A stretch of DNA of 64,000 nt. Source: Phototrophicaceae bacterium. Its GTDB lineage: Bacteria; Chloroflexota; Anaerolineae; Aggregatilineales; Phototrophicaceae. Location: assembly GCA_965262005.1 (NCBI GenBank), contig OZ253492.1:207321-271320 (forward strand), written 5' to 3'. Position numbers and translations under genes: made by a program. Positions 2,746 through 40,326 of this stretch are shown one piece after another; positions within the stretch are counted from its first letter, which is position 1, and every line of letters begins with the position of its first letter. The notes below the pieces were generated by a model that was not told the DNA's origin, ran no database searches, and saw only the letters and a list, made by a program, of their open reading frames with translations.

Positions 2746-3043
2746 GCGATGTCCTTTTCACGGAGATTCCAGATTGAGCTTGGTCTTATATTTAACCACT
2801 GAGGACTGCGAGGGCACAGAGTTTTCTTGTGAACGTGGTCAAATTGGCAAGTGCTGTCGCTGGACTTGGCCTTCTAACACCACCCTGTGCAAAGATGATG
2901 CAAGTCCAAGACTTCGAAATTAGCTAGGAGTAAGTCGGATACAGAAACATTTCCCCTTCAATACGCGCGGTGTTTGAACTTGCCCCGATTTTGTAGACAG
3001 CGCTGTTGTCCAATAGAATCAGGTAAGGAAGGCAGGTAGGAGT

Positions 3044-3334
3044 GTGATGGTGAAGTATCCAGACGAGTTGAAGCGTGAGGCGCTGAATTTAGCGGCGAAG
3101 CCCGGTAGGACGGTGGCCCAGGTGGAGCGCGACTTGGGCATTACGCCGGGACTGATCTACAAGTGGCGGCAGCGGTATCGGGTCGATGAGAATAGCGATG
3201 AGCTTAAGCCAAGCGCCGAACGAGAATCCGAGACCGAGATTCGACGCTTGCAAGGCGAGTTGGCGATCGCACGGGAGGAGCGCGACATTTTAAAAAAAGC
3301 TATCCAAGTGTTCTCGCAGGAAAGCAAATGGTGA
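3044..3334 (+). CDS. IS3 transposase OrfA (HTH)
   Basis: Small HTH/coiled-coil protein (GLIYKWRQRY, EIRRLQGELAIAREERDILKKA). A7 slippery run 3292-3298 sits near its end, allowing a -1 shift into OrfB. Confidence 0.88.
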   Translation: MMVKYPDELKREALNLAAKPGRTVAQVERDLGITPGLIYKWRQRYRVDENSDELKPSAERESETEIRRLQGELAIAREERDILKKAIQVFSQESKW

Positions 3335-4185
3335 AGTACCAATTCATTCTGGAGCATCGGCAGGAGTTCAGCGTGTCGAGGATGTGCCGCGTGTTGGATG
3401 TGAGCAAGAGTGGCTTCTTCGCCTGGTTGAAGCGCGGGAAGAGCCGGCGCGAGCGGGAGGATGCGAGGCTGCTAGCGCGCATCCGGGAAATCTTCGTGGG
3501 TAGCGCCCGGACTTATGGCAGTCCGCGTGTCTGGGCGGAATTGTTGGCGAGAGGCTGGCGGGTAAGCCGTAAGCGGGTAGCGCATTTGATGCGGCTTGCC
3601 GGCATGTACGCGATTCGCAAACAAGGCTATCGAGGCCGGAAGAAATCGGCAGCGTCGACATCGGCGGCGCCCAATATCCTGCAGCAAGATTTCTCGGCCA
3701 CGGACATCAACCAGAAGTGGCTGGCGGACATCGCCTACATTGCCACCAAAGAAGGCTGGCTCCATCTCGCTGTGGTCATGGACGCCTTCTCGCGCCGGAT
3801 TGTCGGCTGGTCTATGAACCGGAGAGCCAACAGCCAGCTGGCGCAAAATGCACTGCTCATGGCAGTGCAGCAGCGTGAATTGCGCGGTCTGCTAATCCAT
3901 CATAGCGACCGTGGCAGTCAGTACACAGACCAGCGTTACCAGCAGTTGCTGACTGACCGTGGCATACAGCCAAGCATGAGCGACACCGGCAGTTGCTACG
4001 ACAACGCCATGGCGGAAAGTTTCTTCGCTACTCTGAAGACCGAGTGCGCGAATCACGTCTTTGACACCATCAACGACGCACGGCGCACTATCGCATACTA
4101 CATAGAGGCATGGTACAACCGCCGCAGACTGCATTCATCGCTGGGCTTTGCCAGCCCTATGCAATTCGAAGAGGCAGAGCATTAG
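3328..4185 (+). CDS. IS3 transposase OrfB (DDE integrase core)
   Basis: In the -1 frame relative to OrfA. rve-type motifs WLADIAYI, HHSDRGSQYT, YDNAMAESFF. TAG stop 35 bp from the right end. Confidence 0.88.
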   Translation: MVKYQFILEHRQEFSVSRMCRVLDVSKSGFFAWLKRGKSRREREDARLLARIREIFVGSARTYGSPRVWAELLARGWRVSRKRVAHLMRLAGMYAIRKQGYRGRKKSAASTSAAPNILQQDFSATDINQKWLADIAYIATKEGWLHLAVVMDAFSRRIVGWSMNRRANSQLAQNALLMAVQQRELRGLLIHHSDRGSQYTDQRYQQLLTDRGIQPSMSDTGSCYDNAMAESFFATLKTECANHVFDTINDARRTIAYYIEAWYNRRRLHSSLGFASPMQFEEAEH

Positions 4186-4573
4186 ACAAATTCAGCGTCC
4201 ACCAAAACGGGTCAAGACCAGTTCCAAAGCGAGCCGTATGGGGATTATCGGAAAAGCGAGGGACAAGGCTGTTAAGGCTGAATGCGTTCAGCGTAGCAGG
4301 ATAGTCGGGTCAGGTGGCGACTGTTTGGACGCATGGGAATTGTCATGACAAGGTTGACGATTGCGCCTGCGAGTCGATTGTATTGAGGGCTGAATTGGTG
4401 GTCGAAGTTGTTTACTGGCTTGCGGGCGATCTGATTGGTCGCCCCTACATCGCAGCGAACGACACGGGTTAATTGGTAGGTTGCTCCCAGTAATATCGAG
4501 TGCGAATGACTGCTGCTTTGTCAAGACGTTTCAATGCCGAATGCACGGGAAATAGATCTGAATTGGCAGATAG

Positions 4574-11701: not shown

Positions 11702-12847
11702 ATTACACCTCCCATTCTTGACTTCGCGGATTCCTTAGACATGTCACGGCCATTCCACTTGATATCCCTAATCTATTCTACTAGACATGTGTAATCGATT
11801 CAACAACACCAAGTGCAAAATGGCCAGGAAATTCTGGCCAGTCGCATCGCTCGAATCCCATGTATACTGCGCGATTGAGCGGGTTCAAGATGATGAAAAG
11901 AACTTGTGCCTGCAAGGGCGGCGGGACGCAGTGTTCCGGTTGTGTCCGCTTCAGTTCGATGGCGATGGACCGAATGTCAGGCTCACTCCGGGTGGACAGG
12001 GCGCAGTCGTGGCACGCGCGCAGAGCGCCCGACACATAGTCAGACAAGGCAGCATTTGAGCGACGCGGGATTCTGTCGCCTGACAAGAGCGCATATAGTC
12101 ATGCGCGAGAGCCGCCTCGCGGCGCAGGCAGAACACGTTGCGCTTCCCCCTGGAAACGTATCGGGTACGTGGCGGGCCTGCTGTTCAGGCTGTCGCTGGG
12201 AGTGCTGCGCCAGGCGTTCGCAGTGAAGAAGATGAATGAGGGCAGGGTTGGCGAAACGGTCCGCAAAATGGTCGGCGCCGGGCCAGCGCGCCGGAGCGAA
12301 GTCGGCCGCAAGATCAAGCGGATCATCGAGCTGAATCCAGCGTTGTGAAATCGAATCTTCGTTTTACGCTTTGGCATACAATGGCGCGGTCGCGGGCAGC
12401 AGGCGCGTTTCGGTCGAAATTCGCCATTCCCCTTGACAGCGCCCCATGGTCATTCCGGGAAAATCCGCGGCGCATCTCTGCACCGGTTGCGGTCCCCGAA
12501 AATATATCGGTTCCTTCCAAAATCCCGCTAAGTGTCGTTGCCGGTTCCGGCTCGTGATTTTTTGACGGGTGGGGGGTGGGATCACCTGCCGCCGGCGTTG
12601 TTGTAAATAGTGCTTTCTAACAGCGCTAATTTGATCACCGTTCCCAGCATGTTGCTGTCCAGGCCGAGTCCCTCTGCACAGCGTCTCTTGGACATGCCTG
12701 CCCGGCCAATCCGCAGCGACTTGCTCCCGAAATCGGAGCCTGCTCTCATAACACAATTGAAAATGAATCGCAGAATTCGCGCCAGAATGGAGTCACCATT
12801 AAGCGGCGAGGTAATCGCGTCTGGCAGGTGATGGCCATCGAGCAGGC

Positions 12848-13194
12848 TCTATGATGAGGGGAGTCATTCGTTTTCGAAACCTAACTTCCCTCGCACTGTG
12901 TGCGCTACGTGTTAGCATGACGTAGTCGTGCCCGACAAGAACAGAGCAACTGAAATCTCCGGCCATGAGATTGCTCTCCAGCAGTGACTGCGTTCACTCG
13001 ACAGATGCACAAAAAGGAGACGCCACACGAGCGCCACAAAATCTAATATCAGATAGCGGCAAGGTCTACCGCCTGCGTACGGGAAGGCGGCGCTGCCTGT
13101 TGCGCTACGCCACGGCAAAAGTGTGAGACAGGACCACCACCGAGACCTATTCGCGCACCTGCACATCTAATCTCACATACAAACAATGTTTACT
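12848..13194 (+). repeat. copy A (internally deleted, truncated) of a leader block paralogous to 37032..38038
   Basis: About 80% identical to rc of 37831..38038 (outer block) and of 37032..37166 (inner block). Two hairpins are conserved by compensatory changes (12856-12864/12884-12892 and 12905-12910/12920-12925). Confidence 0.8.
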
Positions 13195-14583
13195 AAAGCT
13201 CCTTTATGAAAATTCCTTTATAGCCTCCCGTAACTCACGTAATTCTCCTGGCGAAACACCTCTCTAGCCCAATAATCACGTGTGCTACAGAGGATTTCTC
13301 GCGCGCGACCGCGCGAGAAACCAAAATTAGTCGAATGGCGTTCGAACACGGTTTGGAGTAGGTTGAAGAGATTCACTTCGAAGAGGGCTACAAGCTGCGC
13401 GATGAGTTACGGGCGACTATTCTCGAGGAAGCGCAACTCTTATGATAAACCCGCCCGGGCCGCTTGGACTTGCCTGAAGATTGTAGGCTCTCTTAGGGCG
13501 AGCGTTTGGTTTGCCCATGGGCGCTTGGCGATCCTATGAGAGGCATATGACCCCAGGAGACTTGCACGCGGTGCTGTTCTTTGCCAGGCTCACGAGTTAT
13601 CAGCGTTGACGCACATAGCGGCGCACGTCAACGCATGTCGTGTTCTGAGTGCCGCAGGCATAAAGGTGTGCCCTCCGAGAAGAAAAAACCGCACAGCGAG
13701 CGCCACAGGGCACCGTATTGAGCTGATTTGCCCAAATTGACGGTCAGAATGCCGTCTGAAAGTTTACAATGCACCTGGCTGTAGCAGTCAGAAAACTCCA
13801 GCCTACTAACCGGCCGCGTCAATGAGCCATGACCCTGCGCAACGGGCAGACTCCGCTCGTATCGAATCTGGGCACACATCGCTCTGGACGCAAGGCATGT
13901 GGCTCGCGCGAGCCCTGAAGCAAAAAACGTGCACGTCGGACAAATGTCCGCCATGCACGAAAATGAGAGATTGTCGCTAATGAGGGTAGTTTGTGCAGGA
14001 ACGTGTTATAGAAGGGGCGGACAAAAGGGGCGGAGCCGCACAACCCAGGAAGCCCGCAGTTATGGCCGACTGTGGGTTGTTCCGATATATAACTCGCATG
14101 CCGACCAGCGCTGTTTAAATTTAGTACCTTTCCCATGCCAACCAGCGCCGTGTTCAAAGCAGGAACCCGCCCTGTCGCGAGAGATCAGTATTCGACACAT
14201 TGCGCCGTGGCGATTATGTCCCGCGCCAAAACGGCAATAATCTGGATGACTTCCGCATCGTCAGGCGCTATATCCAACAGCAGCAGCGTATCGACGCTGG
14301 CATCACCCGTCCAAGCCCTCTGATGCGCCATACGGGTCAGAATACCGGCTTACTTGTTCGTCTCTAACAAACGATGTGAAGCAAAGATATGGCGCAATAG
14401 TTTTCGAGAGTTGCCACTACTTTGTAATAGATTGTAGGTATTAAATTGTGCGATTATCATAATCAAGAGTGCTTGTGCAGTAGACCAGTATTTATGCTGC
14501 AAGCATCAGAGTCAACGCGACTTGCAGCCTGTCGGTCACGGTCACAAAACCGTATCTAACTGCTGTAGTACAAGGAGCGCGCT

Positions 14584-15267
14584 ATGTCACGGACCAAGCC
14601 GGTTTTCTCATTCATAGCGTTCACAATCCTGTTGTCCGCGATTTTGATGGTTGCGCCCGTACCTGCCGTATACGCAGCCAGCATCACAGTCAATTCCACT
14701 TGCAGCCTGGCTGATGCGATCACCACCGCCAATACCGATAGAGCGAAGGGAGGCTGCCCGGCCGGCAGCGGCGCCGATACGATCACACTGAGCGCGAACA
14801 TAACCTTGGATGCGGCGCTGCCCTACATTCGTTCCGACATAACAATCGAGGGTGGTGGCTATGCAATCAGTGGTAATAACAGCTATCGAATCTTTCGGAT
14901 AACCAGCAGGGGTAACCTCACTCTAAATAATGTAACGCTCACTAATGGAAACAACTTGCACGAGGGCGGCGCGATCCTCAGCTATGACGGCACGTTGACC
15001 ATCACCAACAGTACTTTAAGCAACAATTCGGTGAGCAGACAAGGCGGCGCCATCTATAGCTCGCATCACAGCACAGTAACCATCAGCAACAGCACTTTCA
15101 GCGGCAACTCGGCCAATTGGGGCGGGGCGATCCTTAATCAGGTATTGAGGACGCTAAACGTAAGCAACAGCACCTTCCGCGACAACTCAGCCAGAATGGG
15201 TGGCGCAATCGCCAGCTCAAGCTCGCCCATCACCGGCGACGACACCATCACCGTCACTGGCAATTAG
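14584..15267 (+). CDS. adhesin fragment 1: signal peptide + beta-helix repeats
   Basis: MSRTKPVFSFIAFTILLSAILMVAPVPAVYA signal. Repeats of the form N-S-T-x-S-x-N-S-A-x-x-GGAI. Ends at an amber codon where paralogous repeats have TCG/TCA (Ser). Confidence 0.7.
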   Translation: MSRTKPVFSFIAFTILLSAILMVAPVPAVYAASITVNSTCSLADAITTANTDRAKGGCPAGSGADTITLSANITLDAALPYIRSDITIEGGGYAISGNNSYRIFRITSRGNLTLNNVTLTNGNNLHEGGAILSYDGTLTITNSTLSNNSVSRQGGAIYSSHHSTVTISNSTFSGNSANWGGAILNQVLRTLNVSNSTFRDNSARMGGAIASSSSPITGDDTITVTGN

Positions 15268-16650
15268 GCTGTCGGAAACGGTGGCGGTGTATTTGTTCAG
15301 GCTGTTAGCGGCAGAGTAACCCTTAAGCATGTCACTGTGGCGAATAACTCAGCTGCCAGCGGAGGCGGGGTTTATAAAGATGAGAGAGGAACACTCAAAT
15401 CGCAGAACAGCATAATTGCCGGAAGCACCGACGGTGATTGTATAGGCGGCTTGGATCAAAATATTAACAATCTGATTCAGGATAATTCCTGTTCGCCGGC
15501 ATTGAGTGGTAATCCCAAGCTAGGCGCGCTTACCGGTTCACCCGCTTATTATCCGCTCTTGAGTGACAGCCCGGTGATCAATGCGGCGAATGCCGACCAT
15601 TGCACGGCAACCGATCAGTTTGGCACCACACGGCCGCAGGGCGCTGCTTGCGACATTGGCGCTTATGAATTGCCCGCTGCGTCGATACCAACTGCTACCC
15701 TTGCGCCGACCGAGACATCGACGCCAACGGAGACACCAACGCCGCTACCCTTCAACGTGACGCTGAATGGCACGGCCTGTCACCTCCATGATGCCATCAC
15801 GGCCGCCAATAGCGAAACCGCAACCGGTTCCTGCCCGGCGGGCAGCGGCGCCGATACTATCTCCCTCTTAGCAAACATCAACTTGAATACAGCATCAGCA
15901 CACGCTGGCGCTCCGTATTACCTGACCCAGATTAAATCAGCGATAACGATCCAAGGCAACGGATATACGATCAGTGGACATGGCACCGGCTTGCGCGAGG
16001 ACAGCGGTTACAGTTTCTTCTATATGTTTCCCGGCGCCAGCAGCCTCACGCTTAACAATGTGACGATTCGCAACGGCAGCCAAGTGGTCAGAAACAGCGG
16101 TGGCACAGTTAACATCACAAACAGCACCATCGAGAATATATGGGACGAAACGGCGATCTCAAGCGGGAATTTCACCAGCAGAATTATCGAACCGGGGCGC
16201 ACGTTCATCGCAACTTTGACTATCTCCAATACCACGATACGCAATGTTGAAGATCACTTCATCAGTCGGGAGCGGGGCGGAGGCGCGATTGTTGTCGGGC
16301 CCGGCAATGTAAGCATCTCGAATAACACGATCAGCAACAATCTGCGAGCTATTCCAACAGAGCATATGGCGGCGGGCTTTTCATCAACGGCGCGACAATT
16401 TCCATCAGCAACACGACAATTAGCAGGAACTCAGCGCACGGCTACGGAAGCAGCGGCGGGGGGATCTATGTCAAACAAGGGGTTGTCACCATCAGCAACA
16501 GTACCATCAGCGGAAATGCTGCGACTTCCACAGGCGTCGGCGGCGGCATCTGGATTGAAGGCGGCAGCGTTAGCATCAGCAACAGCACCATCAGGAACAA
16601 TAGCGCAAACAGACATGGCGGCGGCATCCGCGTATCGAACGGGGACCTGA
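15268..16650 (+). CDS. adhesin fragment 2: beta-helix repeats (same frame as fragment 1)
   Basis: AVGNGGGVFVQ... continues in the frame of 14584. Real coding leaves this frame near 16342; the tail to 16650 (A/S/T-rich) is out of frame. Confidence 0.65.
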   Translation, partial: AVGNGGGVFVQAVSGRVTLKHVTVANNSAASGGGVYKDERGTLKSQNSIIAGSTDGDCIGGLDQNINNLIQDNSCSPALSGNPKLGALTGSPAYYPLLSDSPVINAANADHCTATDQFGTTRPQGAACDIGAYELPAASIPTATLAPTETSTPTETPTPLPFNVTLNGTACHLHDAITAANSETATGSCPAGSGADTISLLANINLNTASAHAGAPYYLTQIKSAITIQGNGYTISGHGTGLREDSGYSFFYMFPGASSLTLNNVTIRNGSQVVRNSGGTVNITNSTIENIWDETAISSGNFTSRIIEPGRTFIATLTISNTTIRNVEDHFISRERGGGAIVVGPGNVSISNNTISNNLRAIPTEHMAAGFSSTARQFPSATRQLAGTQRTATEAAAGGSMSNKGLSPSATVPSAEMLRLPQASAAASGLKAAALASATAPSGTIAQTDMAAASAYRTGT

Positions 16651-18980
16651 CACTCAAGCATGTCACGGTGGCAAATAATTCAGCTGGAAGCGGCGGTGAT
16701 CTATCGATACTACAGAACGGCGACTTTGAGCCTACCGAGGCCATCAGATCAGTAGCAGGCTATGGGGCCAATGTGATCATGGTCAACAGCATTATTGCGG
16801 ACAGCACAAGGGGTGGAGATTGCGTCGGTAGCTTGGATCAGAACTTCCACAACCTGATCCAGGACGGTTCCTGTTCGCCGGCATTGAGTGGTGATCCGAA
16901 GCTGGGCGCGCTCACCGGTTCACCCGCCTACTTCCCGCTGCTCAATGACAGCATAGCCCTCGGCGCGGCTGATTCAGCATACTGCCCGGCCACTGATCAA
17001 GCGGGCAACACACGCCCAAGTCCCGCCAACACCAACTGCGACATCGGCGCTTATGAATCTTCTCTTGTGGTAGCGACGGCAACGAACACGCCAACAGCGA
17101 CAGCCACTCCTACAGAGACGCCAACCGAGACACCCACCCCGACAGACACCGCAACGCCAACAGATACACCAGCGGCGACCGAGACCTGCGTAAATGTCGG
17201 TCCGGGAGCTTATTGGCTGTTCTTTGAAGACAATTTCTTGAGCGGTCTCATCACTGTCTATCCAGCAAGTGGCTGCGAGGAATTAGAGATCACAGAGATC
17301 TCAATCGGCGAGGACGGCTATGTCTATACCACAGACGGGCAAGCCGCTGCCTTAGCGCTCTGCGCGGCCGCCCATAATGATGGCAACACATATAGCGTGC
17401 TGATGTACGCAAAAAACACTGATGTCTGGCAGTGCATTCTGGCGTTCACCGCCACGCCCGGGCCCGCTGAAACCGATACGCCGCTCCCTGCTGCTACCGA
17501 TACTCAAATTCCGCCGACCAATACGCCAGCGCTGGTGGTGGATAGTGGCGTCGCCACGGATCGCGCGGCGCTGGTCGCCTTGTATAACAGCACGGATGGC
17601 GACAACTGGGCGGACAACACCAACTGGCTAAGTGGCGAGCCGATCGGCGATTGGTATGGCATCACAACTAACGCTGATGGACGCGTCGTGGAAATAGATC
17701 TTCGTGACAATAGCGTGGGCGGCACGCTCCCGTCGGCGCTAGGCAACCTCTCCGAATTAAAGATTCTAAACCTGAGTTGGAACAGACATAAATCTAGCGA
17801 ACCCCCGGTGGTCGTAGCTGGGCCGCCCACAAACCTGGGTGTAGGCTGGGATGGAGGATTGAGTGGGCCCATACCAGCGGAAATAGGCAATCTGTCAAAG
17901 CTTGAGAAGTTGTATTTGAACGTCAACTTTCTCAGTGGGTCAATTCCATCTTCACTGGGCAATCTTTCCAAATTGGAGCGTCTGTACGCCCACGCAAACC
18001 TGCTGACCGGACCTATCCCCTCATCGCTTGGCAAACTGTCGAATCTGACTCGGATAAGCTTCGGCCTTAATCAATTGAATGGATCTATACCGTCAGAGCT
18101 GGGGAATCTCGCCAATTTAGAGATGCTCAGGCTTGGTTCCAATAAGCTCAGCGGAACTATTCCGACATCACTGGGTGGCCTCAGTAACCTGAAATGGCTG
18201 AGTCTCAGTAATAATGAATTGAGCGGGTGTATCCCTGAGGCGTGGCAGAGCTTGCCATCGTCCGATGACGAATACACCCCCTTGCATGACTTGTCGTATC
18301 TGAATCTACCATACTGTACACTAGCGACACAGACTGATACGCCCACGGCAACAGCGACTGATACACCGACAGCGACGAATACGACTACACCAACCGCGAC
18401 CAACACACCCGAACCAAGAGCGATAGAGAACGGGGCAAACAGCGATGGGCGCCACTGCGTAGTGAGCATATTTGGATATTTTCCGGTGCCGGAGAATAAC
18501 TTCTTGGCCGCGGGCCTGTTTTTGTACGGGGATGATGAATGCAGTCAAGGCGACGGAGTTGAATTTCCGGTCACAGGTAACTACGGGACGGCCTATTCCC
18601 CGACAGGCAGGGAAGCGGCGGCGGCGATCTGCCAACGAGAGAATGCGGATGGCTACGATTACAGGGTCGGTCCCTTCACCTTGCATCCGGATCTCTACGT
18701 TTGCATTCGGGGCGAAGCGAGCGCCGCGGCCAGCGATACGCCTTCACCGACTGCGACACCATCGCCAACAGCGAGCAACAGCGAGCAACACGCCAGAGCC
18801 AACCACCACCAACACGCCGCTGCCGACGAATACCACAGTGCCGCCGACCCATACGCCCGCGCCAACTCCAAGCGGATTCTGCGTTCTGGTCGGTCCCGGC
18901 ACCTATTGGCTGTTCCCCAACGATCGCTTCTTAAGCGGCCTTATCACCGTCTACGCTGGCAGCGACTGTGGCCAGCTTGA
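16347..18980 (+). CDS. adhesin fragment 3: beta-helix, Cys module A1, plant-type LRR, Cys module B1
   Basis: The frame is open from 16347 (SYSNRAYGGGLFINGATISISNTTI...). LRRs LSGSIPSSLGNLSKLERLYAHANLLTGPIPSSLGKLSNL... The tail after 18790 is out of frame. Confidence 0.65.
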   Translation, partial: SYSNRAYGGGLFINGATISISNTTISRNSAHGYGSSGGGIYVKQGVVTISNSTISGNAATSTGVGGGIWIEGGSVSISNSTIRNNSANRHGGGIRVSNGDLTLKHVTVANNSAGSGGDLSILQNGDFEPTEAIRSVAGYGANVIMVNSIIADSTRGGDCVGSLDQNFHNLIQDGSCSPALSGDPKLGALTGSPAYFPLLNDSIALGAADSAYCPATDQAGNTRPSPANTNCDIGAYESSLVVATATNTPTATATPTETPTETPTPTDTATPTDTPAATETCVNVGPGAYWLFFEDNFLSGLITVYPASGCEELEITEISIGEDGYVYTTDGQAAALALCAAAHNDGNTYSVLMYAKNTDVWQCILAFTATPGPAETDTPLPAATDTQIPPTNTPALVVDSGVATDRAALVALYNSTDGDNWADNTNWLSGEPIGDWYGITTNADGRVVEIDLRDNSVGGTLPSALGNLSELKILNLSWNRHKSSEPPVVVAGPPTNLGVGWDGGLSGPIPAEIGNLSKLEKLYLNVNFLSGSIPSSLGNLSKLERLYAHANLLTGPIPSSLGKLSNLTRISFGLNQLNGSIPSELGNLANLEMLRLGSNKLSGTIPTSLGGLSNLKWLSLSNNELSGCIPEAWQSLPSSDDEYTPLHDLSYLNLPYCTLATQTDTPTATATDTPTATNTTTPTATNTPEPRAIENGANSDGRHCVVSIFGYFPVPENNFLAAGLFLYGDDECSQGDGVEFPVTGNYGTAYSPTGREAAAAICQRENADGYDYRVGPFTLHPDLYVCIRGEASAAASDTPSPTATPSPTASNSEQHARANHHQHAAADEYHSAADPYARANSKRILRSGRSRHLLAVPQRSLLKRPYHRLRWQRLWPA

Positions 18981-20133
18981 CATCACTCAAAGCTCAATCG
19001 GCGAGGGCGGCTATGTTTACACTAGCGCCGGACAAGCCACTGCGATGGACCTTTGCGCAGCGGGCCATGGCGATGGCTCAACTTATACCGTTGTCCCTGT
19101 GCCTGCCAATACCGATGTCTGGCAATGCGCGCCGCCGCCAGCAGACAGGCCTGAACCTACATCGACCCAAACATCCGTACCCCCAAGCAACACAGCGCTA
19201 CCGACTGCAACCGAGACGTCTACAGTAGCCGCGACCGATTCGCCGCCGCCAACAGCGATAGAGAAGCAGGCAAACAGCGATGCGGGTCACTGCTTACTGA
19301 GCGTATTTGGATATTTCCCGGTGCCGGGGAATAACTTCTTGCCTGCAAGCCTGTTTTTGTACGGCGATGATGAATGCAGTCAAGGCGACGGATATGTATA
19401 TGACGCTCCCGGCAGCTATGGAACGGCCTATTCCCCGACAGGCAGGGAAGCGGCTGCGGCGATCTACCAACGAGAGAATGCCGATGGCTTCGATTACACT
19501 GTCAGCCCCTTCACCTTGCATCAGGATCTCTACGTTTGCGTTCGCGGCGAAGCGAGCGCCGCGGCCAGCGATACGTCTGTACCGACTGCGACCAACACGC
19601 CCGTGCCAACCGCGACCAATACGCCTTCACCAACTGCTACGAACACACCCGAGCCAACCGCAACCGACACACCATCGCCGACGGCGAGCAACACGCCTGT
19701 CCCGACGAATACAACAGTGCCGACGGCGACAGACTCGCCTGTTCCTGACGGAAAAGATACAACCCAACAGGAGGCAGCCGACACCTGTGTTCACGCCAGT
19801 GGGGGGATTTACGTCAGCTTCCCCGCCAACAGCTTCCTGATCGGCGCGATCAGCCTGTACACGGATAGCGACTGCCAGATCAGCAATAGCCAGACCAACA
19901 CCCCTGGCAGCTACGGGATCGTTTACACCGCCGCCGGACAAGAGCGCGCGCTGAACTCTGCGCCGCCGGCAATGACAACGGCATGGCATTCACAGCAAGA
20001 AGCGGCTCTTTTAGCAACAATATTTGGCGCTGCGACCCACAGACCGCGACCAACACGCCCGAACCCGCCGATACGCAATCCATTCAGCCGCAGCAACAGG
20101 CAGTTGAACCGACAGCAGTGTCCGCAGTCATAG
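18781..20133 (+). CDS. adhesin fragment 4: Cys module A2, B2, degenerate A3
   Basis: ASNTPEPTTTNTPLPTNTTVPP..., GFCVLVGPGTYWLFPNDRFLSGLITVY..., NSDAGHCLLSVFGYFPVPGNNF... The tail after about 19954 is out of frame. Confidence 0.65.
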   Translation, partial: ASNTPEPTTTNTPLPTNTTVPPTHTPAPTPSGFCVLVGPGTYWLFPNDRFLSGLITVYAGSDCGQLDITQSSIGEGGYVYTSAGQATAMDLCAAGHGDGSTYTVVPVPANTDVWQCAPPPADRPEPTSTQTSVPPSNTALPTATETSTVAATDSPPPTAIEKQANSDAGHCLLSVFGYFPVPGNNFLPASLFLYGDDECSQGDGYVYDAPGSYGTAYSPTGREAAAAIYQRENADGFDYTVSPFTLHQDLYVCVRGEASAAASDTSVPTATNTPVPTATNTPSPTATNTPEPTATDTPSPTASNTPVPTNTTVPTATDSPVPDGKDTTQQEAADTCVHASGGIYVSFPANSFLIGAISLYTDSDCQISNSQTNTPGSYGIVYTAAGQERALNSAPPAMTTAWHSQQEAALLATIFGAATHRPRPTRPNPPIRNPFSRSNRQLNRQQCPQS

Positions 20134-20951
20134 AAGGCAGCGACGCAACGGCGACCAACACGCCCGAACCCACCGCCACCAACACGCTTGTCCCGACGAA
20201 TACGACAGTGCCGCCGACCAATACGCCCATACCAGCGGCCAGCAACACCGCCATACCGGAAAGCGCGAAGCGGATCAACAGCGTCACTCTCCTGAGCGAC
20301 CAGCCCGGCGTACTCGTTGTCACATGGAATCTGCCGTCAGCGTCACCGGGTGACTACCGCCTCAGTTGGGCGCGCGTTGGCGAAGGCTTCCCCTACTTTA
20401 AGAATCCGGGCAATGTCTACCCGACGACAAATTCCTACACCATCACGGACCTGGAACAGGGCGCGCGTTACAAAGTGCGGGTACGCGCCCGCTACGATGG
20501 CGGCGGCGACTGGAGCGAGCCGGTCGATGCGGAGGTCATGGCTGCGCCCGTTGCCGCCAACACAGCTGTCCCGACGAATACAGCAGTACCGCCGACCAAC
20601 ACACCTGTGCCGACGAATACAACAGTTCCGCCGACCAACACGCCCGTGCCCGTGGCTAATAGCCGTGATGTTAGCAACGTACAGCTGACAAGCGCTCAGC
20701 TAGGCGAGCTTACGGTATCGTGGAATGCGCCCTCGGAAGCGCCGCGGGACTATCGCGTCATGTACGCCCGAGTCGATGAAAACTACAAGTCCTGGAAAGA
20801 TTCGAGCGGCAATGTCTTTCCGACCGGCGCCTCGATCACACTCACTGGCTTGGACCAGGGTGTGCGTTACAAGCTAAAGGTGCGGGCGCGCTACAACGGC
20901 GGTTCAGGCGACTGGTCGGAGCAGTATGAGGCGGATATTGCCGCTTCCTGA
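19956..20951 (+). CDS. adhesin fragment 5: two fibronectin-III-like domains
   Basis: LCAAGNDNGMAFTARSG... followed by two FN3-like units (VLVVTWNLPSASPGDYRLSWARVG...YKVRVRARY and LTVSWNAPSEAPRDYRVMYARVD...YKLKVRARY). Confidence 0.65.
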   Translation, partial: LCAAGNDNGMAFTARSGSFSNNIWRCDPQTATNTPEPADTQSIQPQQQAVEPTAVSAVIEGSDATATNTPEPTATNTLVPTNTTVPPTNTPIPAASNTAIPESAKRINSVTLLSDQPGVLVVTWNLPSASPGDYRLSWARVGEGFPYFKNPGNVYPTTNSYTITDLEQGARYKVRVRARYDGGGDWSEPVDAEVMAAPVAANTAVPTNTAVPPTNTPVPTNTTVPPTNTPVPVANSRDVSNVQLTSAQLGELTVSWNAPSEAPRDYRVMYARVDENYKSWKDSSGNVFPTGASITLTGLDQGVRYKLKVRARYNGGSGDWSEQYEADIAAS

Positions 20952-23180: not shown

Positions 23181-23836
23181 CGGTTACACCCCCACGCGGT
23201 ACACCCCCACGCCTGTGGGGAAAACGTCGTGAGACTCCGATTGACGACATGCTGGAGCGGTACACCCCCACGCCTGTGGGGAAAACCTGATCGGCGCGCA
23301 GGGCATCGGCAAATCGTACGGTACACCCCCACGCCTGTGGGGAAAACGACGGGCTTGTACACGCGGGAAGTAGCGGACGACGGTACACCCCCACGCCTGT
23401 GGGGAAAACAGTTGCATCGGGATCTTCGCAATCGCGCCCGACGGTACACCCCCACGCCTGTGGGGAAAACGGCGCGACCAAATGGAACGGATTGAAGGCA
23501 CGGGGTACACCCCCACGCCTGTGGGGAAAACAAGGGGACGATCCATAAGACAATGATACCCTACGGTACACCCCCACGCCTGTGGGGAAAACAATGCTAT
23601 AAGAGCGTCAAAACCATCAGTGCCCGGTACACCCCCACGCCTGTGGGGAAAACTCAATTCTGGAGGGCGATTATCGCTGTCTGTTCGGTACACCCCCACG
23701 CCTGTGGGGAAAACTACATTCCTTGGTGCGTCTATCGCTGGGAACGCGGTACACCCCCACGCCTGTGGGGAAAACTCAACGACCGTATCAGCCGTTGTCT
23801 TACGAGACGGTACACCCCCACGCCTGTGGGGAAAAC
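23181..23836 (-). CRISPR. type I-E CRISPR array: 11 repeats, 10 spacers, plus a degenerate terminal partial repeat
   Basis: 29-nt repeat GTTTTCCCCACAGGCGTGGGGGTGTACCG (minus strand) with stem CCCCAC/GTGGGG. Repeats start (plus coordinates) at 23197, 23258, 23319, 23381, 23442, 23503, 23564, 23625, 23686, 23747 and 23808. Spacers are 32-33 nt. A partial degenerate repeat lies at 23181-23196, distal to cas2. Confidence 0.97.
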
Positions 23837-23900: not shown

Positions 23901-24203
23901 TTAACGGTCCTCCACGTCCCCTCCGGCCGGCAACGGTCGCCTGACCAACTGCAGGCCATCGATGTCGACAATCTCCCGCCGCGTATTGCCAAACACGCGG
24001 ACCGCGAACCGTTGCTCGTTGTTGGTCGTCCACATCTGGATAACTCCTCCCTCACGGCAGGCAGCACACGCTCGTTCCCACAGGCGATCCCGCACCATCG
24101 CCGTCAAATGACCCAGAAACACCCCTGGATGTGGTTCGATCAGCCAGCGCGATAACTCCCCGCGTAAGCCGACAGGTACACTTTCCATGATCATCACGAC
24201 CAT
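23901..24203 (-). CDS. cas2: Cas2 (type I-E)
   Basis: 100 aa, last gene before the array, overlaps cas1 by 10 nt. ESVPVGLRGELSRWL... is typical of Cas2e. Confidence 0.9.
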   Translation of the reverse strand: MVVMIMESVPVGLRGELSRWLIEPHPGVFLGHLTAMVRDRLWERACAACREGGVIQMWTTNNEQRFAVRVFGNTRREIVDIDGLQLVRRPLPAGGDVEDR

Positions 24204-25117: not shown

Positions 25118-25199
25118 TTCACGCCTCCAATATTAGAGCGGTGGCAGTTCGAGTGTTTTTACTGCCTATACTTCCAAGCTTGACTGAAGCGATGAAACT

Positions 25200-25811: not shown

Positions 25812-25813
25812 AC

Positions 25814-26476: not shown

Positions 26477-26479
26477 GAG

Positions 26480-27589: not shown

Positions 27590-27606
27590 CGGTCGGATTT
27601 CCTTTC

Positions 27607-28104: not shown

Positions 28105-28113
28105 GCATACCTC

Positions 28114-36117: not shown

Positions 36118-36336
36118 TCATGCTTCGGCTTCAATGACAAAGCTGAGAAGTTTACCAGGCAGCTAGAAAAGGGCGATCTCCCCAGAGATGTCGTGTAGAG
36201 AGTCGGCACCGCTGTCTTCAAATTGCAGGTGCGAAACCCAGCTGTGCGAGGGTGGGCACCCAAGGGCTACCTCATCATCGGGACCCTCGACCAACAGCAG
36301 GCGATCACGACTCTCATCGATCTTGATATTCTTCAC
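36118..36336 (-). pseudogene. TOPRIM-like (LLVEGxDD motif) remnant with an in-frame amber codon
   Basis: GTG 36336 overlaps the ATPase TGA (GTGA). VKNIKIDESRDRLLLVEGPDDEVALG... TAG at 36163-36165, then 14 more codons to TGA 36118-36120. Far shorter than OLD/DUF4435/DUF3226-type partners. Confidence 0.45.
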
Positions 36337-37102
36337 CCGCGAACCTCATAGCTGACTCTGGTAACCGCATCCATGCCAAACTCATTGTATGTCACTGCTT
36401 CGATGTTGCCAGTTTGCAGGTTTCGCTCCAAGCGGTGGAAACGGAATTCGTAAGAATCATCGTCCTTGAAGGCTTCGTGGGCTGCCTCGATCATTTCCCA
36501 GCTGTGTGTCGTGGCGAAGACTTGCACGTTGTGCTCGCGCGCGGCTTCGCCGATATCATTCCATACATTCTGTTGAACTGAGTAGTGGATGCCATTCTCT
36601 ATTTCATCGATGAAAAGGTACTCCGGTTTATCACCTCGCATCACCATCAGGATGCTGGCGAAGCGAATTGAACCTTCGCCAAGCAGATGCAAAGGCATCA
36701 GGACGCCGTCGACCTCTACCCAAATCCTCCGCCGACCGTCAGGTGACAAGACTTCCACATCTGTTAGACTCGGTTCAAGCTTCTTCAACGCATCGTCTAT
36801 GGCGATGTGTTGGCCTTCAACTTTAAGCATGCTGTACTTGTCAGTCAGTTCCTCACTGTCTGGTGTGCCCCGTACCGGGGAAAACTGGGACTTCTCCTTT
36901 CTGGCTTTGAGGCGTGTTCCCCGCAAATAGTTATCGGAGTTGGCGGAGTCCCTTCCTCGCTCGCGTACACGCGCGCGAGGAAGGCGCTGTAGCCCTTGCC
37001 AGCTCTGACGTCTTTCCACTGACAGATAATCAGTACAAATTGTCTGTATGTGAGATTAGATGCGCAGGTGCGTGAATAGATCTCGATAGTGGTCCCGTTC
37101 AC
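36333..37102 (-). pseudogene. AAA_21/ABC-type ATPase (AriA/OLD-ATPase-like), frameshifted near the P-loop
   Basis: The C-terminal frame has LLGEGSIRFASIL, Walker B YLFIDEIENGIHYS and the TTHS motif. The N-terminus (GTG 37102, MNGTTIEIYSR...VLII.Q..DVRAGKGYSAFLARV) is in another frame. The switch lies near 36960-36990. Confidence 0.6.
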
Positions 37103-38038
37103 ACTTTTGCATTAGCGTAGCGCAACAGCCATCCCGCACGCAGGCGCTTGACCTTGTCGCTATGATTGGCGCTCGTCCGAGCCGTCAGATTGATTTCGCA
37201 GATCGCTGCTTTCTTGACCGTTTCCACAGTGAAATCATCGACATCAAGGTGCGAGGACGTGTCCATGCGCAGGAGACCCGGCACAGCGCCTTCGAGCAGG
37301 TGTAGGTCAATCTCTGTCCGCGTGTCCTGTTTATTCCTCGACTTGGCCGGAATCTTCATGCTGGAGGATTTGCTTTCCGACAAAGGTAACGGGTCGATTC
37401 GCGCCGGCAGGGTAGGTTGCGCCGACTCCGATACCTAGCCGCTGCGAATTACACACCGTGGTTATCGACGAAGTGAAACACAGCGAAAGTATCACGAAAT
37501 TGCGTGGAACGTGGAAATAAATTTACATAGTCCAGTGAGTAAGGCAGTGAACAGGTTCCGGCCGATCTTGCCATCCTCAATGTTGTACAGATGTAGTAAC
37601 CCGAGCGCATGCCTTTCGTCAAAAATCCCCACGGCAGGCAGTGATAGTTTTCAAATCTCTCAGCATCTGTTAATATATCTCTGCACACACATGCAGAGCG
37701 GAGGACTAAAATGACCCCGCACTTTTGTCATACCAAAGTGGGCGAGGCGTGACGCGTTGTCAAGCTTGCGTTTGCCAAGGCCCGGTATAGCCGTCCGGCA
37801 CATCTAATTCAGAACGGTATTGTCACCGCCATCTGATATTGGATATGGTGACGCTCGTGTGGCGTTATCTCTTGACGCATCCGTCTAGCGAACGCAGTCA
37901 CGGCTGGAGAGTAATCTCACGGCCGGGGATCTCAGTTGCTCTGTTCTTGTCGGGCACGACAGTGTCATGGCTAACACTGATCGTGCAAAGTGCAAGGGGA
38001 GTTCGGTTTCGAAAGGGACTGACTCCCCTCATCATAGA
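37032..38038 (-). repeat. copy B (fuller) of the leader block paralogous to 12848..13194
   Basis: The outer block 37831..38038 and inner block 37032..37166 match copy A in inverted orientation. 37167..37830 is absent from copy A, with the deletion lying between short ATCA.ATAGCG.CAA repeats. Confidence 0.8.
37099..37383 (-). CDS. small hypothetical protein translationally coupled to the ATPase
   Basis: Its stop overlaps the ATPase GTG (GTGA at 37099-37102). The C-terminal ...KV(K/Y)RLR.G..LLRYA.AKV* is conserved at the aa level in copy A (13052-13126). A likelier start is ATG 37359 (MKIPAKSRNKQD). Confidence 0.4.
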   Translation of the reverse strand: MSESKSSSMKIPAKSRNKQDTRTEIDLHLLEGAVPGLLRMDTSSHLDVDDFTVETVKKAAICEINLTARTSANHSDKVKRLRAGWLLRYANAKV

Positions 38039-38141
38039 CATACAACATGACGAGCGAAGGCACAAAGGGCCTGATGACCCAGCCCCATCCGGCTCTGCAA
38101 GGCCGAGGTCTCCTTCGGACAAGATCGGTGAGGTCGACACT

Positions 38142-38318
38142 ATGGAACGGGCTGAACGCAATGAGACGGCATTTGTGCTGAGTTTTGTTTTCGGGCTATT
38201 TGCTGTCTACGGCATCGCGCATCTTTATCAAGGCAAGATCAAAGAGGGGCTTGTGTGGATGTTTACCAAGGGGCGCATTTACCAAAGTGCCAGGCTGAGG
38301 GTCGTGGTGTTTCGGTAA
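38142..38318 (+). CDS. small TM2-domain-like membrane protein (tentative)
   Basis: MERAERNETAFVLSFVFGLFAVYGIAHLYQGKIKEGLVWMF resembles the G.H.FY.GK core of TM2 domains. 58 aa. Confidence 0.35.
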   Translation: MERAERNETAFVLSFVFGLFAVYGIAHLYQGKIKEGLVWMFTKGRIYQSARLRVVVFR

Positions 38319-39191: not shown

Positions 39192-39764
39192 ATGGACAAG
39201 GAAGTACAACCGCAGGCAATCGGCATCGAAGATTGGTCGAAGCTGGAGCCGGTCAATGATCCCAGCTTAATCATTCTACTTGATCTCAACCATACACTCG
39301 TCTCTGGTAGCCGGGCTACACTCATGCTGCCGGGGAAAAACTACGGGGAAAAGATCCTCAATGAGAATTACCGCCCAGGCTTGGTCGAGCTGATCAAAGG
39401 GCACATAGTCTTGCTCTACACTGTCCGCAACGAAACTCATAGAGATGTCACCTTGAGAATGATTGCGGAGAAGTGCAATGGCTGGCAGCCACACGAAGCG
39501 TTTTTTAGCCGCCCTAAGAACCCTACCGGCCCCGCTGTCAAGGGAGCATATCTCAAGGAGCTGATTTTCCCGAAGTACGGTGAACCGGATCAACAGAAAT
39601 ACTATGCCATTGAGTCCGAGAAGACTGTTCGCGCTATGTTGTGGAAGCGCTACCGGATTCCAGCAGATCCAGTGATGACAACTGGACGCGCCTGCCATAC
39701 TACGACGATGCCGCGAAAAATGAGTGAAATATACTCACCAGCAACAATCACCTCATCGACTTAA
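39192..39764 (+). CDS. HAD-like (FCP1/NIF-like fold?) protein, paralog 1, C-terminus frameshifted
   Basis: Motif I-like ILLDLNHTLV, LLYTVR, and a conserved GWQPHEAFFS...LIFPKYGEPDQQKYYAIES. A frame shifted by 2 nt from about 39680 encodes NWTRLPYYDDAAKNE* (stop 39725-39727), which matches the C-terminus of paralog 2. Confidence 0.5.
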   Translation: MDKEVQPQAIGIEDWSKLEPVNDPSLIILLDLNHTLVSGSRATLMLPGKNYGEKILNENYRPGLVELIKGHIVLLYTVRNETHRDVTLRMIAEKCNGWQPHEAFFSRPKNPTGPAVKGAYLKELIFPKYGEPDQQKYYAIESEKTVRAMLWKRYRIPADPVMTTGRACHTTTMPRKMSEIYSPATITSST

Positions 39765-39789
39765 GTGGATTCTAGCAGAAAGGTAGACC

Positions 39790-40326
39790 ATGCAAGACTC
39801 AGCGCAAGCCCCGCTGTTCGGCAGTGAAGAGAAGCTGCAGCTGGAGCCGGTGAATGATCCCAGCTTGATCATCCTGCTCGACCTCAATTACACGCTCGTT
39901 GCCAATAGCAAGCTCAAGGAACGATCAAGGGCTCCCTACAACGACAAAATTCTCCAGGAGACCTATCGGCTGGAGCTAATCGAGCTGATCAAGGGGCATA
40001 CGGTCCTGCTCTGTACTGTCCGCAAAGAAACGTATAGAGACATCACCCTGAGAACAATTGCACAGAAGTGCAGTGGCTGGCAACCGCACGAAGCATACTT
40101 TAGCTCGACTGACAGTTGGCACGGCGATATCGTCAAAGCCGAATATCTCGAGAAGCTGATATTTCCGAAGTATGGGACGCCGGATGAACAGCAATACTAT
40201 GCAATCGAGTCCGCCACAAGAGCCCGTGGTATGTACAAAAGGTACGGCATTCCGTTCGATTCGGTCGGGAAGCAGATGAACTGGACGCGCTTGCCCTACT
40301 ATTCCAGGTTAAGCGACAAGGACTAG
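39790..40326 (+). CDS. HAD-like protein, paralog 2
   Basis: ILLDLNYTLV, LLCTVR, GWQPHEAYFS...LIFPKYGTPDEQQYYAIES...NWTRLPYY. Roughly 55-60% identical to paralog 1 by eye. The last base of the TAG stop is the first base of the IS5 element. Confidence 0.5.
   Translation: MQDSAQAPLFGSEEKLQLEPVNDPSLIILLDLNYTLVANSKLKERSRAPYNDKILQETYRLELIELIKGHTVLLCTVRKETYRDITLRTIAQKCSGWQPHEAYFSSTDSWHGDIVKAEYLEKLIFPKYGTPDEQQYYAIESATRARGMYKRYGIPFDSVGKQMNWTRLPYYSRLSDKD

What the first reader, a model, noticed from the sequence alone, without database searches (positions are those of the whole stretch)
12848..13194. Inverted paralogous leader blocks with compensatory hairpin changes: candidate structured RNA
Seen in sequence: 12848..13060 matches the reverse complement of 37831..38038 at roughly 80% identity, and 13055..13194 matches rc of 37032..37166. 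Two hairpins are preserved by paired substitutions. Hairpin 2 is CTACGT/ACGTAG in copy A (12905-12910 / 12920-12925) and CAGTGT/ACACTG in copy B (37960-37965 / 37974-37979). That is three double changes that all keep Watson-Crick pairing. Hairpin 1 is GAGGGGAGT/ACTTCCCTC in A (12856-12864 / 12884-12892) and GAGGGGAGT/ACTCCCCTT in B (38022-38030 / 37994-38002 on the plus strand). Its differences give G-U pairs only when read on the A-plus / B-minus strand, which is the strand of the downstream ATPase operon in copy B. A 29-nt core GTCGTGCCCGACAAGAACAGAGCAACTGA is identical in both copies. No convincing protein frame spans the block. The best frame has a stop in B where A has TCG. Inference: a roughly 210-nt structured 5' leader or ncRNA belonging to the cassette described in the next finding. 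I do not recognise it as any known RNA family.
Basis: partly seen in the sequence, partly recalled or inferred. Interest (0 to 1): 0.7.

Follow-up and report, generated by a model that had tools for sequence, protein, structure and literature searches.

The report
Structured RNA, but opposite strand
The repeated block is real and belongs to a previously undescribed folded RNA of about 220 bases found in a family of mobile genomic islands of Chloroflexota, but it is read from the strand opposite to the one proposed, has nothing to do with the ATPase, and the copy at 12848-13194 is a truncated, decaying relic.

Summary
12848-13059 matches the reverse complement of 37826-38038 at 83%, and 13053-13194 matches 37032-37163 at 81%.

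I found 13 more copies in related Chloroflexota contigs, always upstream of the same gene pair and always co-oriented with it. With 14-15 copies the block shows no coding signal and no Rfam match. It has a conserved multi-helix fold only on the strand opposite to the one proposed:
- Opposite strand: consensus -61 kcal/mol, SCI 0.70, z -7.9.
- Proposed strand: consensus -30 kcal/mol, SCI 0.41, z -2.0.
- In the pairs of the opposite-strand fold: 179 G-U cells against 16 A-C cells.

A conserved promoter-like module (TTTTCA-17-TAATAT), a 5' hairpin and a 13-codon mini-ORF lie upstream on that strand. Downstream are variable small membrane-protein genes and two Pnkp-3'-phosphatase-fold genes.

The ATPase next to copy B is an N-terminally truncated remnant, and no other copy is linked to one. 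Copy A arose by a 662-nt internal deletion. It lacks the promoter and 5' part, and all its private changes in paired columns break pairs.

The most likely function is a cis-acting 5' leader. This is inferred, not shown.

The parts
37823..38041 (+). Copy B of the structured RNA domain ('block 1'), read on the window + strand. It has four well-supported helices plus weaker long-range ones.
   Evidence: CM R1 scores 247 bits. 61 of 62 consensus pairs form in this copy.
37994..38030 (+). It has about 7+7 bp and is capped by a GAAA tetraloop on this strand. Conservation stops 10-16 nt after it, and no U-tract follows.
   Evidence: (helix 8; pairs 178/205, 184/201 and 187/198 show double changes).
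37960..37979 (+). It is extended by an outer 5-bp helix (GCACG/CGUGC).
   Evidence: helix 7: pair 139/156 is AU:8 GU:4 UG:2 and pair 141/154 is UA:12 CG:1. The register variant is shared by A and L011.
37932..37960 (+). The 29-nt core (reverse complement of GTCGTGCCCGACAAGAACAGAGCAACTGA). Its centre CUCUGUUCU is invariant in 14 copies. It lies mostly in junction or weakly paired segments.
37648..37676 (+). Promoter-like site: TTTTCA, a 17-nt spacer, then TAATAT. It reads towards block 1.
   Evidence: The hexamers and spacing are kept in 23 aligned copies from 15 loci. It matches only 8 of 12 consensus positions, so the simple scan did not list it.
37679..37698 (+). Palindrome CTCTGCACACACATGCAGAG at or near the inferred transcription start. 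It could be a 5' RNA hairpin or an operator.
   Evidence: Nearly invariant in 23 copies.
37700..37752 (+). Shine-Dalgarno GGAGGA followed by a 13-codon mini-ORF (37711-37752, MTPHFCHTKVGEA).
   Evidence: The ORF is kept in all 14 copies that precede block 1. Third codon positions hardly vary, so the constraint may act on the RNA rather than the peptide.
12845..13062 (-). Copy A of the domain. It is 5'-truncated, has no promoter module, and is decaying.
   Evidence: CM scores 200 bits. 10 of 62 pairs are broken, 3 of them through the register shift. All 7 private changes in paired columns break pairing.
13053..13194 (.). Block 2 in copy A. It is homologous to the 3' end and downstream flank of the orphan ORF next to copy B. 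A 662-nt deletion fused it to block 1, at a short imperfect repeat (GCGGTGACAA / GCGACAAGG).
37032..37383 (-). Block 2 in copy B (37032-37163) and the orphan ORF of 94 codons (37099-37383). They lie upstream of the promoter module on the opposite strand.
   Evidence: The protein search returned only the window's own protein. There is no Pfam hit. L005 has the same segment with an 8-nt indel that shifts the frame.
38142..38318 (+). First gene downstream on the RNA's strand: a 58-aa TM2-like membrane protein. Other loci have DUF6693 or other small ORFs in this slot.
39192..40326 (+). Two paralogous genes (39192-39764 and 39790-40326). They are present downstream of the RNA in the related loci as a pair or as a single copy. 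The fold resembles the 3'-phosphatase domain of T4 polynucleotide kinase.

Best explanation
Block 1 is the 3' structured domain (about 220 nt) of a roughly 360-nt RNA.

Layout of the transcript (inferred):
- A conserved sigma-70-like promoter (37648-37676).
- A 7-bp hairpin at the start.
- A Shine-Dalgarno site and a 13-codon mini-ORF.
- A multi-helix domain whose stems covary and whose junction (the 29-nt core) is nearly invariant.
- A long GAAA-capped hairpin at the end.

The RNA belongs to a family of integrase-bearing genomic islands or plasmid-like elements of Chloroflexota. There it always precedes, on the same strand, a variable slot of small membrane-protein genes and one or two Pnkp-phosphatase-fold genes.

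I think it most likely acts in cis as a 5' leader that sets read-through, stability or translation of those genes. Its invariant junction would be the site bound by a factor or ligand. A stand-alone small RNA is the second possibility.

Copy A (12848-13194) is the remnant of a second, related element. An internal deletion removed its promoter and 5' part, and it is no longer under structural selection.

Shown: conservation, strand asymmetry, covariation, fixed gene context, absence of coding signal. Inferred: transcription, the promoter, and the cis-regulatory role.
For: More copies. Thirteen further copies were recovered through a neighbouring protein. nhmmer and the covariance model place all of them on the strand of the downstream genes.

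Consensus fold.
- Gene-co-oriented strand: -62.6 kcal/mol, 62 pairs, covariation term -3.8.

Pair counts on the gene-co-oriented strand.
- 95.4% of cells are paired, against 92.2% in shuffles (0 of 500 reach it). Slid controls give 40-48%.
- 10 pairs have changes on both sides, against 5.0 +/- 1.4 (0 of 500).
- The other strand has 4 such pairs, against 1.7 (23 of 500).

Strand test on the same helices. 647 Watson-Crick cells, 179 G-U, 16 A-C.

Alignment-shuffle test on 12 non-redundant copies. SCI 0.70 and z -7.9 on the gene-co-oriented strand; SCI 0.41 and z -2.0 on the other.

Tetraloop. GAAA tetraloops close the terminal hairpin on this strand in most copies.

Promoter. TTTTCA-17-TA..AT is kept in 23 copies.

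Downstream genes. The DUF6693 start codon lies 37 nt after the hairpin in L008 and L009, leaving no room for another promoter. Seven loci have no second promoter module before the phosphatase-fold genes.

Coding. There is no codon periodicity and no shared ORF, and no Pfam hit for any conceptual translation.

Copy A. It has the most broken pairs, and all 7 private changes are disruptive.
Against: - There are no expression data. Transcript ends and even transcription are inferred.
- The promoter matches only 8 of 12 consensus positions and was not listed by the simple scan.
- No U-tract follows the terminal hairpin. Whether it terminates, stabilises or does neither is open.
- The long-range helices that close the multiloop change between runs and have no double compensations.
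- The structure was predicted from the same alignment on which it was scored.
- The sequences are related, with about 11-12 independent lineages. Many come from 2-6x coverage long-read contigs that may carry errors.
- In eight loci a second copy of the promoter module precedes the conserved genes without block 1. Block 1 is therefore not needed for their expression there.
- In L012 and L014 no gene is called between the RNA and that second module. This fits a stand-alone RNA as well as a leader.
Confidence: 0.68

Rival explanations
1. A roughly 210-nt structured leader or ncRNA is transcribed on the A-plus / B-minus strand. It serves the downstream ATPase operon of a duplicated cassette.
For: - Hairpins 1 and 2 can also form on that strand.
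- Copy A has five A-C cells on the other strand that would be G-U here.
- Alignment-shuffle z is -2.0 on this strand.
Against: - The consensus fold is half as stable and lacks covariation. With 14 sequences hairpin 1 is not in the tool's consensus structure on this strand.
- 179 G-U cells would become A-C mismatches on this strand.
- The ATPase is an N-terminally truncated fragment. In the other held loci no ATPase gene adjoins the RNA; the only one called lies about 7 kb away in L014.
- The sequence downstream on this strand differs between loci.
- The G-U cells of copy A occur in a copy whose other private changes also break pairs.
Confidence: 0.04
2. The same strand-specific fold acts as single-stranded DNA rather than RNA. 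Examples would be a single-strand initiation site, an origin, or a transfer-related site of the mobile element.
For: - The elements are integrative or plasmid-like, with integrase, ParA, ParB and Toprim genes.
- G-T is the least destabilising DNA mismatch, so strand asymmetry alone does not exclude DNA.
- There is no terminator and no expression evidence.
Against: - A conserved promoter-like module, a Shine-Dalgarno site and a mini-ORF sit directly upstream on the same strand.
- The element lies between a promoter and co-oriented genes in every locus.
- The small 6.4-kb island of L008 has no replication or transfer genes but keeps the element.
- About a fifth of pair cells are G-U, which is typical of RNA.
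Confidence: 0.08
3. The repeat marks a small mobile element: an insertion sequence or a MITE-like deletion derivative. The hairpins are its subterminal DNA structures.
For: - The A/B homology has sharp boundaries.
- A is an internally deleted version of a 1-kb unit.
- The region is full of insertion sequences.
Against: - There are no terminal inverted repeats, no target duplication and no transposase.
- There are only two copies in the window and one in a 4.5-Mb related genome.
- Thirteen other copies sit at the same position relative to the same genes.
- A is as far from B (82%) as copies in other genomes are. This points to a second related island, not to recent transposition.
Confidence: 0.04
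4. The block is a decayed protein-coding gene. In copy A one frame runs through the whole element with a single stop and joins the orphan ORF's C-terminus in frame.
For: - Frame 0 of copy A has only one stop from 12848 to 13126.
- The contigs are low-coverage long-read assemblies in which frameshifts may be errors.
Against: - There is no 3-periodicity of substitutions: 12/12/12 for A against B and 67/68/68 for 13 copies.
- No frame is open in all copies.
- There are no Pfam hits and no protein homologues among 5.8 billion sequences.
- Stems covary instead.
Confidence: 0.02

Closest known systems
Cis-regulatory 5' leader RNAs (riboswitch-like or protein-binding leaders)
   Same: - It lies between a conserved promoter and co-oriented genes.
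- Stems covary while junction nucleotides are nearly invariant.
- It ends in a strong hairpin shortly before the first start codon (37 nt in L008 and L009).
   Different: - It matches none of the 4227 Rfam models.
- There is no recognisable expression platform: no U-tract terminator and no demonstrated masking of the Shine-Dalgarno site.
- The genes downstream vary, so no ligand or metabolic logic is suggested.
- It is dispensable in loci that carry a second promoter module.
Large structured ncRNAs linked to mobile elements and prophages (ROOL, GOLLD, HEARO/omega RNA, STAXI, int-alpA motifs in Rfam)
   Same: It is a few hundred nucleotides long, multi-helix, confined to integrative elements near an integrase, and of unknown function.
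   Different: - Sequence and structure searches find no similarity, even at E up to 10.
- No TnpB or IscB gene was seen among the scanned proteins near the two copies or in the called genes of the related loci, and the window has no tRNA gene.
- It is known so far only from one Chloroflexota lineage.
Promoter-proximal RNA elements repeated behind two promoters of one mobile element (for example the put antitermination RNAs of phage HK022). This comparison is from my own knowledge.
   Same: The promoter and the first ~85 nt of the leader occur twice in eight islands, once before block 1 and once before the conserved genes.
   Different: - This concerns the leader module, not block 1.
- There is no sequence or structure similarity to put.
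- Antitermination was not tested.
Type I toxin-antitoxin loci (a small membrane toxin mRNA with a long structured 5' UTR and an antisense RNA)
   Same: - Small hydrophobic proteins are encoded just downstream (TM2-like 58 aa, DUF6693 107 aa).
- The 5' UTR is long and structured.
   Different: - The downstream proteins differ in family between loci.
- No antisense promoter was found.
- The antisense strand shows no conserved fold.

Membership tests
Any Rfam 15 family | A covariance-model match at or near the family's gathering score | tested here: not met
   - No match at gathering score in the 64-kb window.
- Only chance-level microRNA and snoRNA matches at E up to 10 around both copies.
- Nothing at E up to 1 in three homologous loci.
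Conserved structured RNA (generic) | Base pairs kept through compensatory and wobble changes beyond controls, on one strand | tested here: met
   - 10 pairs have double changes, against 5.0 +/- 1.4 in shuffles (0 of 500). 95.4% of cells are paired, against 40-48% for slid partners.
- Alignment-shuffle z is -7.9 with SCI 0.70.
- The opposite strand is weak.
Cis-regulatory 5' leader | Lies downstream of a promoter and upstream of co-oriented genes in all members | tested here: met
   All 14 full copies follow the TTTTCA-17-TA..AT module and precede same-strand genes. The promoter is inferred from conservation only.
Cis-regulatory 5' leader | An expression platform: an intrinsic terminator or a helix that masks the ribosome-binding site | tested here: inconclusive
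   The terminal hairpin has no U-tract. A predicted 9-bp pairing between the invariant core and the Shine-Dalgarno region is invariant and is expected by chance.
Intrinsic terminator (hairpin 1) | A G+C-rich stem followed by a run of U | tested here: not met
   The scan lists no terminator at 37994-38045 on the + strand. The sequence after the stem is CAUCAUAGAC.
Insertion sequence / MITE | Terminal inverted repeats, target-site duplication, many dispersed copies, a transposase in full-length copies | tested here: not met
   The ends TCTATGATGAGG... and ...CAATGTTTACT are unrelated and the flanks show no duplication. There are two copies in the window. The only ORF has no homologues.
Integron attC site | RYYYAAC / GTTRRRY core sites flanking an imperfect palindrome, arranged in arrays between cassettes | tested here: not met
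   By eye, ACCTAAC occurs in copy A but is ACCGAAC in B. There is no array: one copy per locus.
Retron msr-msd RNA | An adjacent reverse transcriptase gene | tested here: not met
   No reverse-transcriptase domain appears among the neighbours scanned in the window or among the called genes of 15 loci.
Protein-coding gene or pseudogene | A shared open frame with substitutions concentrated at third codon positions | tested here: not met
   Variable columns by position mod 3 are 67/68/68, and no frame is open in all copies on either strand.

The most novel reading that the evidence does not exclude
Block 1 is the sensor domain of a new class of riboswitch-like or factor-binding regulatory RNA, specific to a family of Chloroflexota integrative defence islands. 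Its invariant junction (...CUCUGUUCUUGUCGGG...) binds a small molecule, a protein or another RNA. That binding gates expression of a swappable cargo slot (small membrane proteins) together with two genes whose products have a polynucleotide 3'-phosphatase fold of the RNA-repair type.
Probability: 0.25. Interest if true: 0.65.

Novelty: new member of a known kind. Interest (0 to 1): 0.5.

Why it matters
The block adds a new structured RNA motif that is absent from Rfam. Comparative evidence already supports it (15 copies, strand-specific covariation) and its genomic role is defined: a conserved promoter, then the RNA, then a variable cargo slot and phosphatase-fold genes, in integrase-bearing islands that carry CRISPR-Cas, CBASS and toxin-antitoxin cargo.

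If it is a regulatory leader, it would be a handle on how these poorly known Chloroflexota mobile islands control their cargo.

The case also shows that a strand call from two G-U pairs in two copies can be reversed once more copies are found. One of those two copies was a decaying relic.

Tried and rejected
DNA searches that found nothing useful:
- blastn of both copies against plasmid and phage collections: nothing.
- Exact-pattern scan of one genome per species with a 20-mer of the core: one hit, L001, a Phototrophicaceae metagenome-assembled genome.
- Two scans of JGI metagenomes with two independent 20-mers: nothing.
- Four scans of viral contigs: only two chance 18-mer matches.

Protein searches that found nothing useful:
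- A spurious ORF translated across the block: nothing.
- The orphan ORF of 94 codons: only itself.

Ideas tested and rejected:
- Diversity-generating retroelement template/variable repeat: the substitution spectrum is general, not adenine-specific.
- Extended protein-level similarity of the flanks of A and B, as a duplicated cassette would show: none beyond the two DNA blocks.
- Complementarity of the core to other sites in the window: only chance 9-14-mers.
- Consensus promoter and terminator scans around A, B and L001: nothing informative.
- With only three copies, RNAalifold could not decide strand or structure. The question was settled only after orthologous loci were fetched through the neighbouring protein.
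- L013 has the same gene neighbourhood but no copy of the RNA, even with the covariance-model filters off.

Full report
**1. The observation**

The two blocks exist as described. The repeat finder reports inverted pairs 12848-12916 / 37970-38038, 12916-13059 / 37826-37969 and 13128-13194 / 37032-37098. blastn within the window joins them into two matches:
- 12848-13059 against 38038-37826: 83.1% over 213 nt, E 3e-57.
- 13053-13194 against 37163-37032: 81% over 142 nt, E 1e-31.

No other copy is in the window. Hairpins 1 and 2, the identical 29-nt core and the TAG/TCG difference are all at the stated places. In B the two blocks are separated by about 660 nt. That stretch holds an orphan ORF of 94 codons, 37099-37383 on the - strand. 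The protein search returned only the window's own protein, and the ORF has no Pfam hit.

**2. First tests**

Rfam gives nothing at gathering score for the whole window, and only chance-level matches at E up to 10 around both copies. There are no tRNA genes, and nothing in the phage or plasmid collections.

A 20-mer of the core found one place among 185,579 species genomes: L001, a Phototrophicaceae (Chloroflexota) metagenome-assembled genome. Its copy is at the position orthologous to B. Two metagenome scans and four viral scans found nothing real. With three copies the block was clearly non-coding, with A-B mismatches by codon position of 12/12/12. RNAalifold could not decide strand or structure.

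**3. Getting more copies**

The gene 1.1 kb from copy B (39192-39764) has 27 homologues in ENA metagenome assemblies. I fetched the DNA around 11 of them. nhmmer and a covariance model then found the block in 13 loci besides the window: L001, L005, L007, L008, L009, L011, L012, L014, L016, L017, L018, L019 and L020. L008/L009 and L017/L018 are near-duplicates. Identity to B is 73-93%.

In every locus the block lies upstream of that gene and on its strand.

**4. Which strand folds**

*RNAalifold on the 14-copy alignment*
- Gene-co-oriented strand: -62.6 kcal/mol, 62 pairs, covariation term -3.8.
Hairpin 1 is not in the tool's consensus structure on this strand.

*Pair counting on the gene-co-oriented strand*
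- 95.4% of cells are paired, against 92.2% in shuffles (0 of 500) and 40-48% with slid partners.
- 10 pairs have changes on both sides, against 5.0 +/- 1.4 (0 of 500).
- On the other strand the figure is 4 against 1.7 (23 of 500).

*Pair types in the helices of the gene-co-oriented fold.* There are 647 Watson-Crick cells, 179 G-U cells and 16 A-C cells. Neutral decay of a DNA palindrome should give G-U and A-C about equally, so this asymmetry points to selection on one strand.

*Alignment-shuffle test of my own on 12 non-redundant copies*
- Gene-co-oriented strand: SCI 0.70, z -7.9 (0 of 200).

*Robust helices, in A7 columns*
- 26-33 / 39-46.
- 79-88 / 93-103.

The long-range helices that close the multiloop change between runs and have no double compensations.

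*The 29-nt core.* It lies mostly in junction or weak segments, and its centre CUCUGUUCU is invariant.

*Coding.* There is no codon periodicity (67/68/68) and no shared ORF on either strand.

**5. What surrounds it**

*Upstream, on the folding strand.* Every full copy is preceded by a module with these parts:
- TTTTCA, a 17-nt spacer, and TAATAT (37648-37676 in the window).
- The palindrome CTCTGCACACACATGCAGAG.
- GGAGGA and a 13-codon ORF, MTPH[FY]xHTxVGEA.

In eight loci the promoter and the first ~85 nt recur a second time. In seven of them the second copy lies within about 350 nt upstream of the conserved gene pair or of DUF6693. Across all 23 copies the -35 and -10 hexamers and their spacing are kept, but the ATG is kept only in the copies that precede block 1. 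The promoter matches 8 of 12 consensus positions, so the simple scan did not list it. It is inferred from conservation.

*Downstream.* Conservation stops 10-16 nt after the terminal hairpin. No U-tract follows it. The next genes are on the same strand and vary:
- A TM2-like 58-aa protein (window, L005, L007).
- DUF6693 (L001, L008, L009). In L008 and L009 its start codon is 37 nt after the hairpin.
- Other small ORFs.
- The conserved gene directly (L016).

*The conserved gene.* It models with pLDDT 71, and its best PDB matches are the 3'-phosphatase domain of T4 polynucleotide kinase and Pnkp1 (E 3e-5, TM 0.72 on the target). Its first motif is DxN rather than DxD.

*The islands.* They carry a tyrosine integrase 2-4 kb away, with varying cargo such as CBASS, PIN toxins and type I restriction. 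In L008 the island is only about 6.4 kb, between chromosomal genes. L012 and L013 are 82-86 kb contigs with ParA, ParB-like and Toprim genes. In the window the island spans roughly 9.6-41.2 kb, between a Lon protease gene and glycosyltransferase genes.

**6. The ATPase and copy A**

*The ATPase.* ORF 36333-37019 (-) matches only profile positions 291-374 of 374 of AAA_15. It lacks the Walker A half and is followed by a 57-codon fragment (36163-36336) that by eye resembles the start of a TOPRIM/DUF4435-type protein. These are remnants. They lie on the strand opposite to the RNA. In the other held loci no ATPase gene adjoins the RNA; the only one called lies about 7 kb away in L014.

*Copy A.* It consists of block 2 fused directly to block 1.
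- Relative to B and L005 it has lost 662 nt: most of the orphan ORF, the promoter module and the first ~140 nt of the transcript.
- The junction is at the short imperfect repeat GCGGTGACAA / GCGACAAGG.
- It has the most broken pairs, 10 of 62, of which 3 come from a register shift of hairpin 2 that it shares with L011.
- All 7 of its private changes in paired columns break pairing.
- It is as far from B (82%) as copies from other genomes are. It is best read as the relic of a second, related island, not a recent duplicate.

**7. Interpretation**

The evidence supports a conserved structured RNA domain on the window + strand at copy B. It is part of a roughly 360-nt transcript from a conserved promoter in a family of Chloroflexota mobile islands. 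Covarying stems, an invariant junction, and a fixed place between a promoter and co-oriented genes make a cis-acting 5' leader the most likely role.

A stand-alone small RNA remains possible. L012 and L014 have no called gene before the second promoter module. A strand-specific single-stranded DNA element is a weaker rival.

**8. Limits**

- There are no expression data.
- The sequences are related, and many come from 2-6x coverage long-read contigs.
- The structure was predicted and scored on the same alignment.
- The family is known only from one lineage, because I could not scan the ENA and Logan assemblies by DNA.

Noticed in passing
window 23197-23836 and 24194-33231: A CRISPR array with 29-nt repeats (CGGTACACCCCCACGCCTGTGGGGAAAAC, 61-nt period) lies next to a type I-E cas operon on the - strand. 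The operon includes Cas3, Cse1, Cse2 and Cas7 and has a WYL-domain gene beside cas3. All of this sits between the two copies of the RNA block, inside the island.
   Followed up: partly
window 2975-4220 and 33750-34995: Two 100% identical 1246-nt copies of an IS3-family element (HTH_Tnp_1 plus rve ORFs). One is in chromosomal context and one is inside the island.
   Followed up: partly
window 36163-37019 (-): Remnants of a defence-type gene pair. An AAA_15/AAA_21 ATPase lacks its N-terminal two thirds. It is followed by a 57-codon fragment with the motif LLVEGPDDE, which by eye resembles the start of a TOPRIM/DUF4435-type partner.
   Followed up: partly
window 39192-39764 and 39790-40326; homologues P0002-P0028: Two adjacent paralogues with no Pfam match. 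The predicted fold resembles the 3'-phosphatase domain of T4 polynucleotide kinase and the Pnkp1 RNA-repair enzyme. The invariant motif is LLDLNxTL, so the second aspartate is replaced by asparagine. They occur as a conserved gene pair (or a single copy in some loci) in the related islands.
   Followed up: partly
L001 6716-6913, L011 3385-3512, L012 9669-9774, L014 9673-9762, L017 9693-9859, L019 9713-9837, L020 8724-8827: A second copy of the promoter module with the first ~85 nt of the leader (GCACACACATGCAGAGCGGAGG...GTGGGCGAG) occurs in the same islands, without block 1. In most of them it lies shortly upstream of the phosphatase-fold genes or DUF6693.
   Followed up: partly
window 38812-38945 and L001 6461-6595: A 134-nt non-coding stretch is 92% identical between the window and the related genome, more than its surroundings. 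It contains CACACACGCAGAAAACGGAGCGAGGCGGGGCG, which resembles the promoter-module motif. It may be a degenerate second module or another conserved element.
   Followed up: no
window 14584-20951 (+): Very large repeat-rich ORFs with T/P-rich 24-nt tandem units and parallel beta-helix-like 'SNSTFSGNSA' repeats lie just downstream of copy A. Related islands (L012, L013, L016) carry giant fn3/PMP/LRR proteins.
   Followed up: no
No DNA-level similarity links them.
   Followed up: partly
window 13293-13325 and 36951-36984: G+C-rich palindromes of similar sequence (TTTCTCGCGCGCGACCGCGCGAGAAA and CCTTCCTCGCGCGCGTGTACGCGAGCGAGGAAGG) lie 50-100 nt beyond the block-2 end of both copies. Neither is followed by a T-run.
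   Followed up: no
L013 (86-kb contig): This locus has the same neighbourhood (DUF6693, the two phosphatase-fold genes, ParB-like, Toprim, ParA) but no copy of the RNA, even with the covariance-model filters off.
   Followed up: partly
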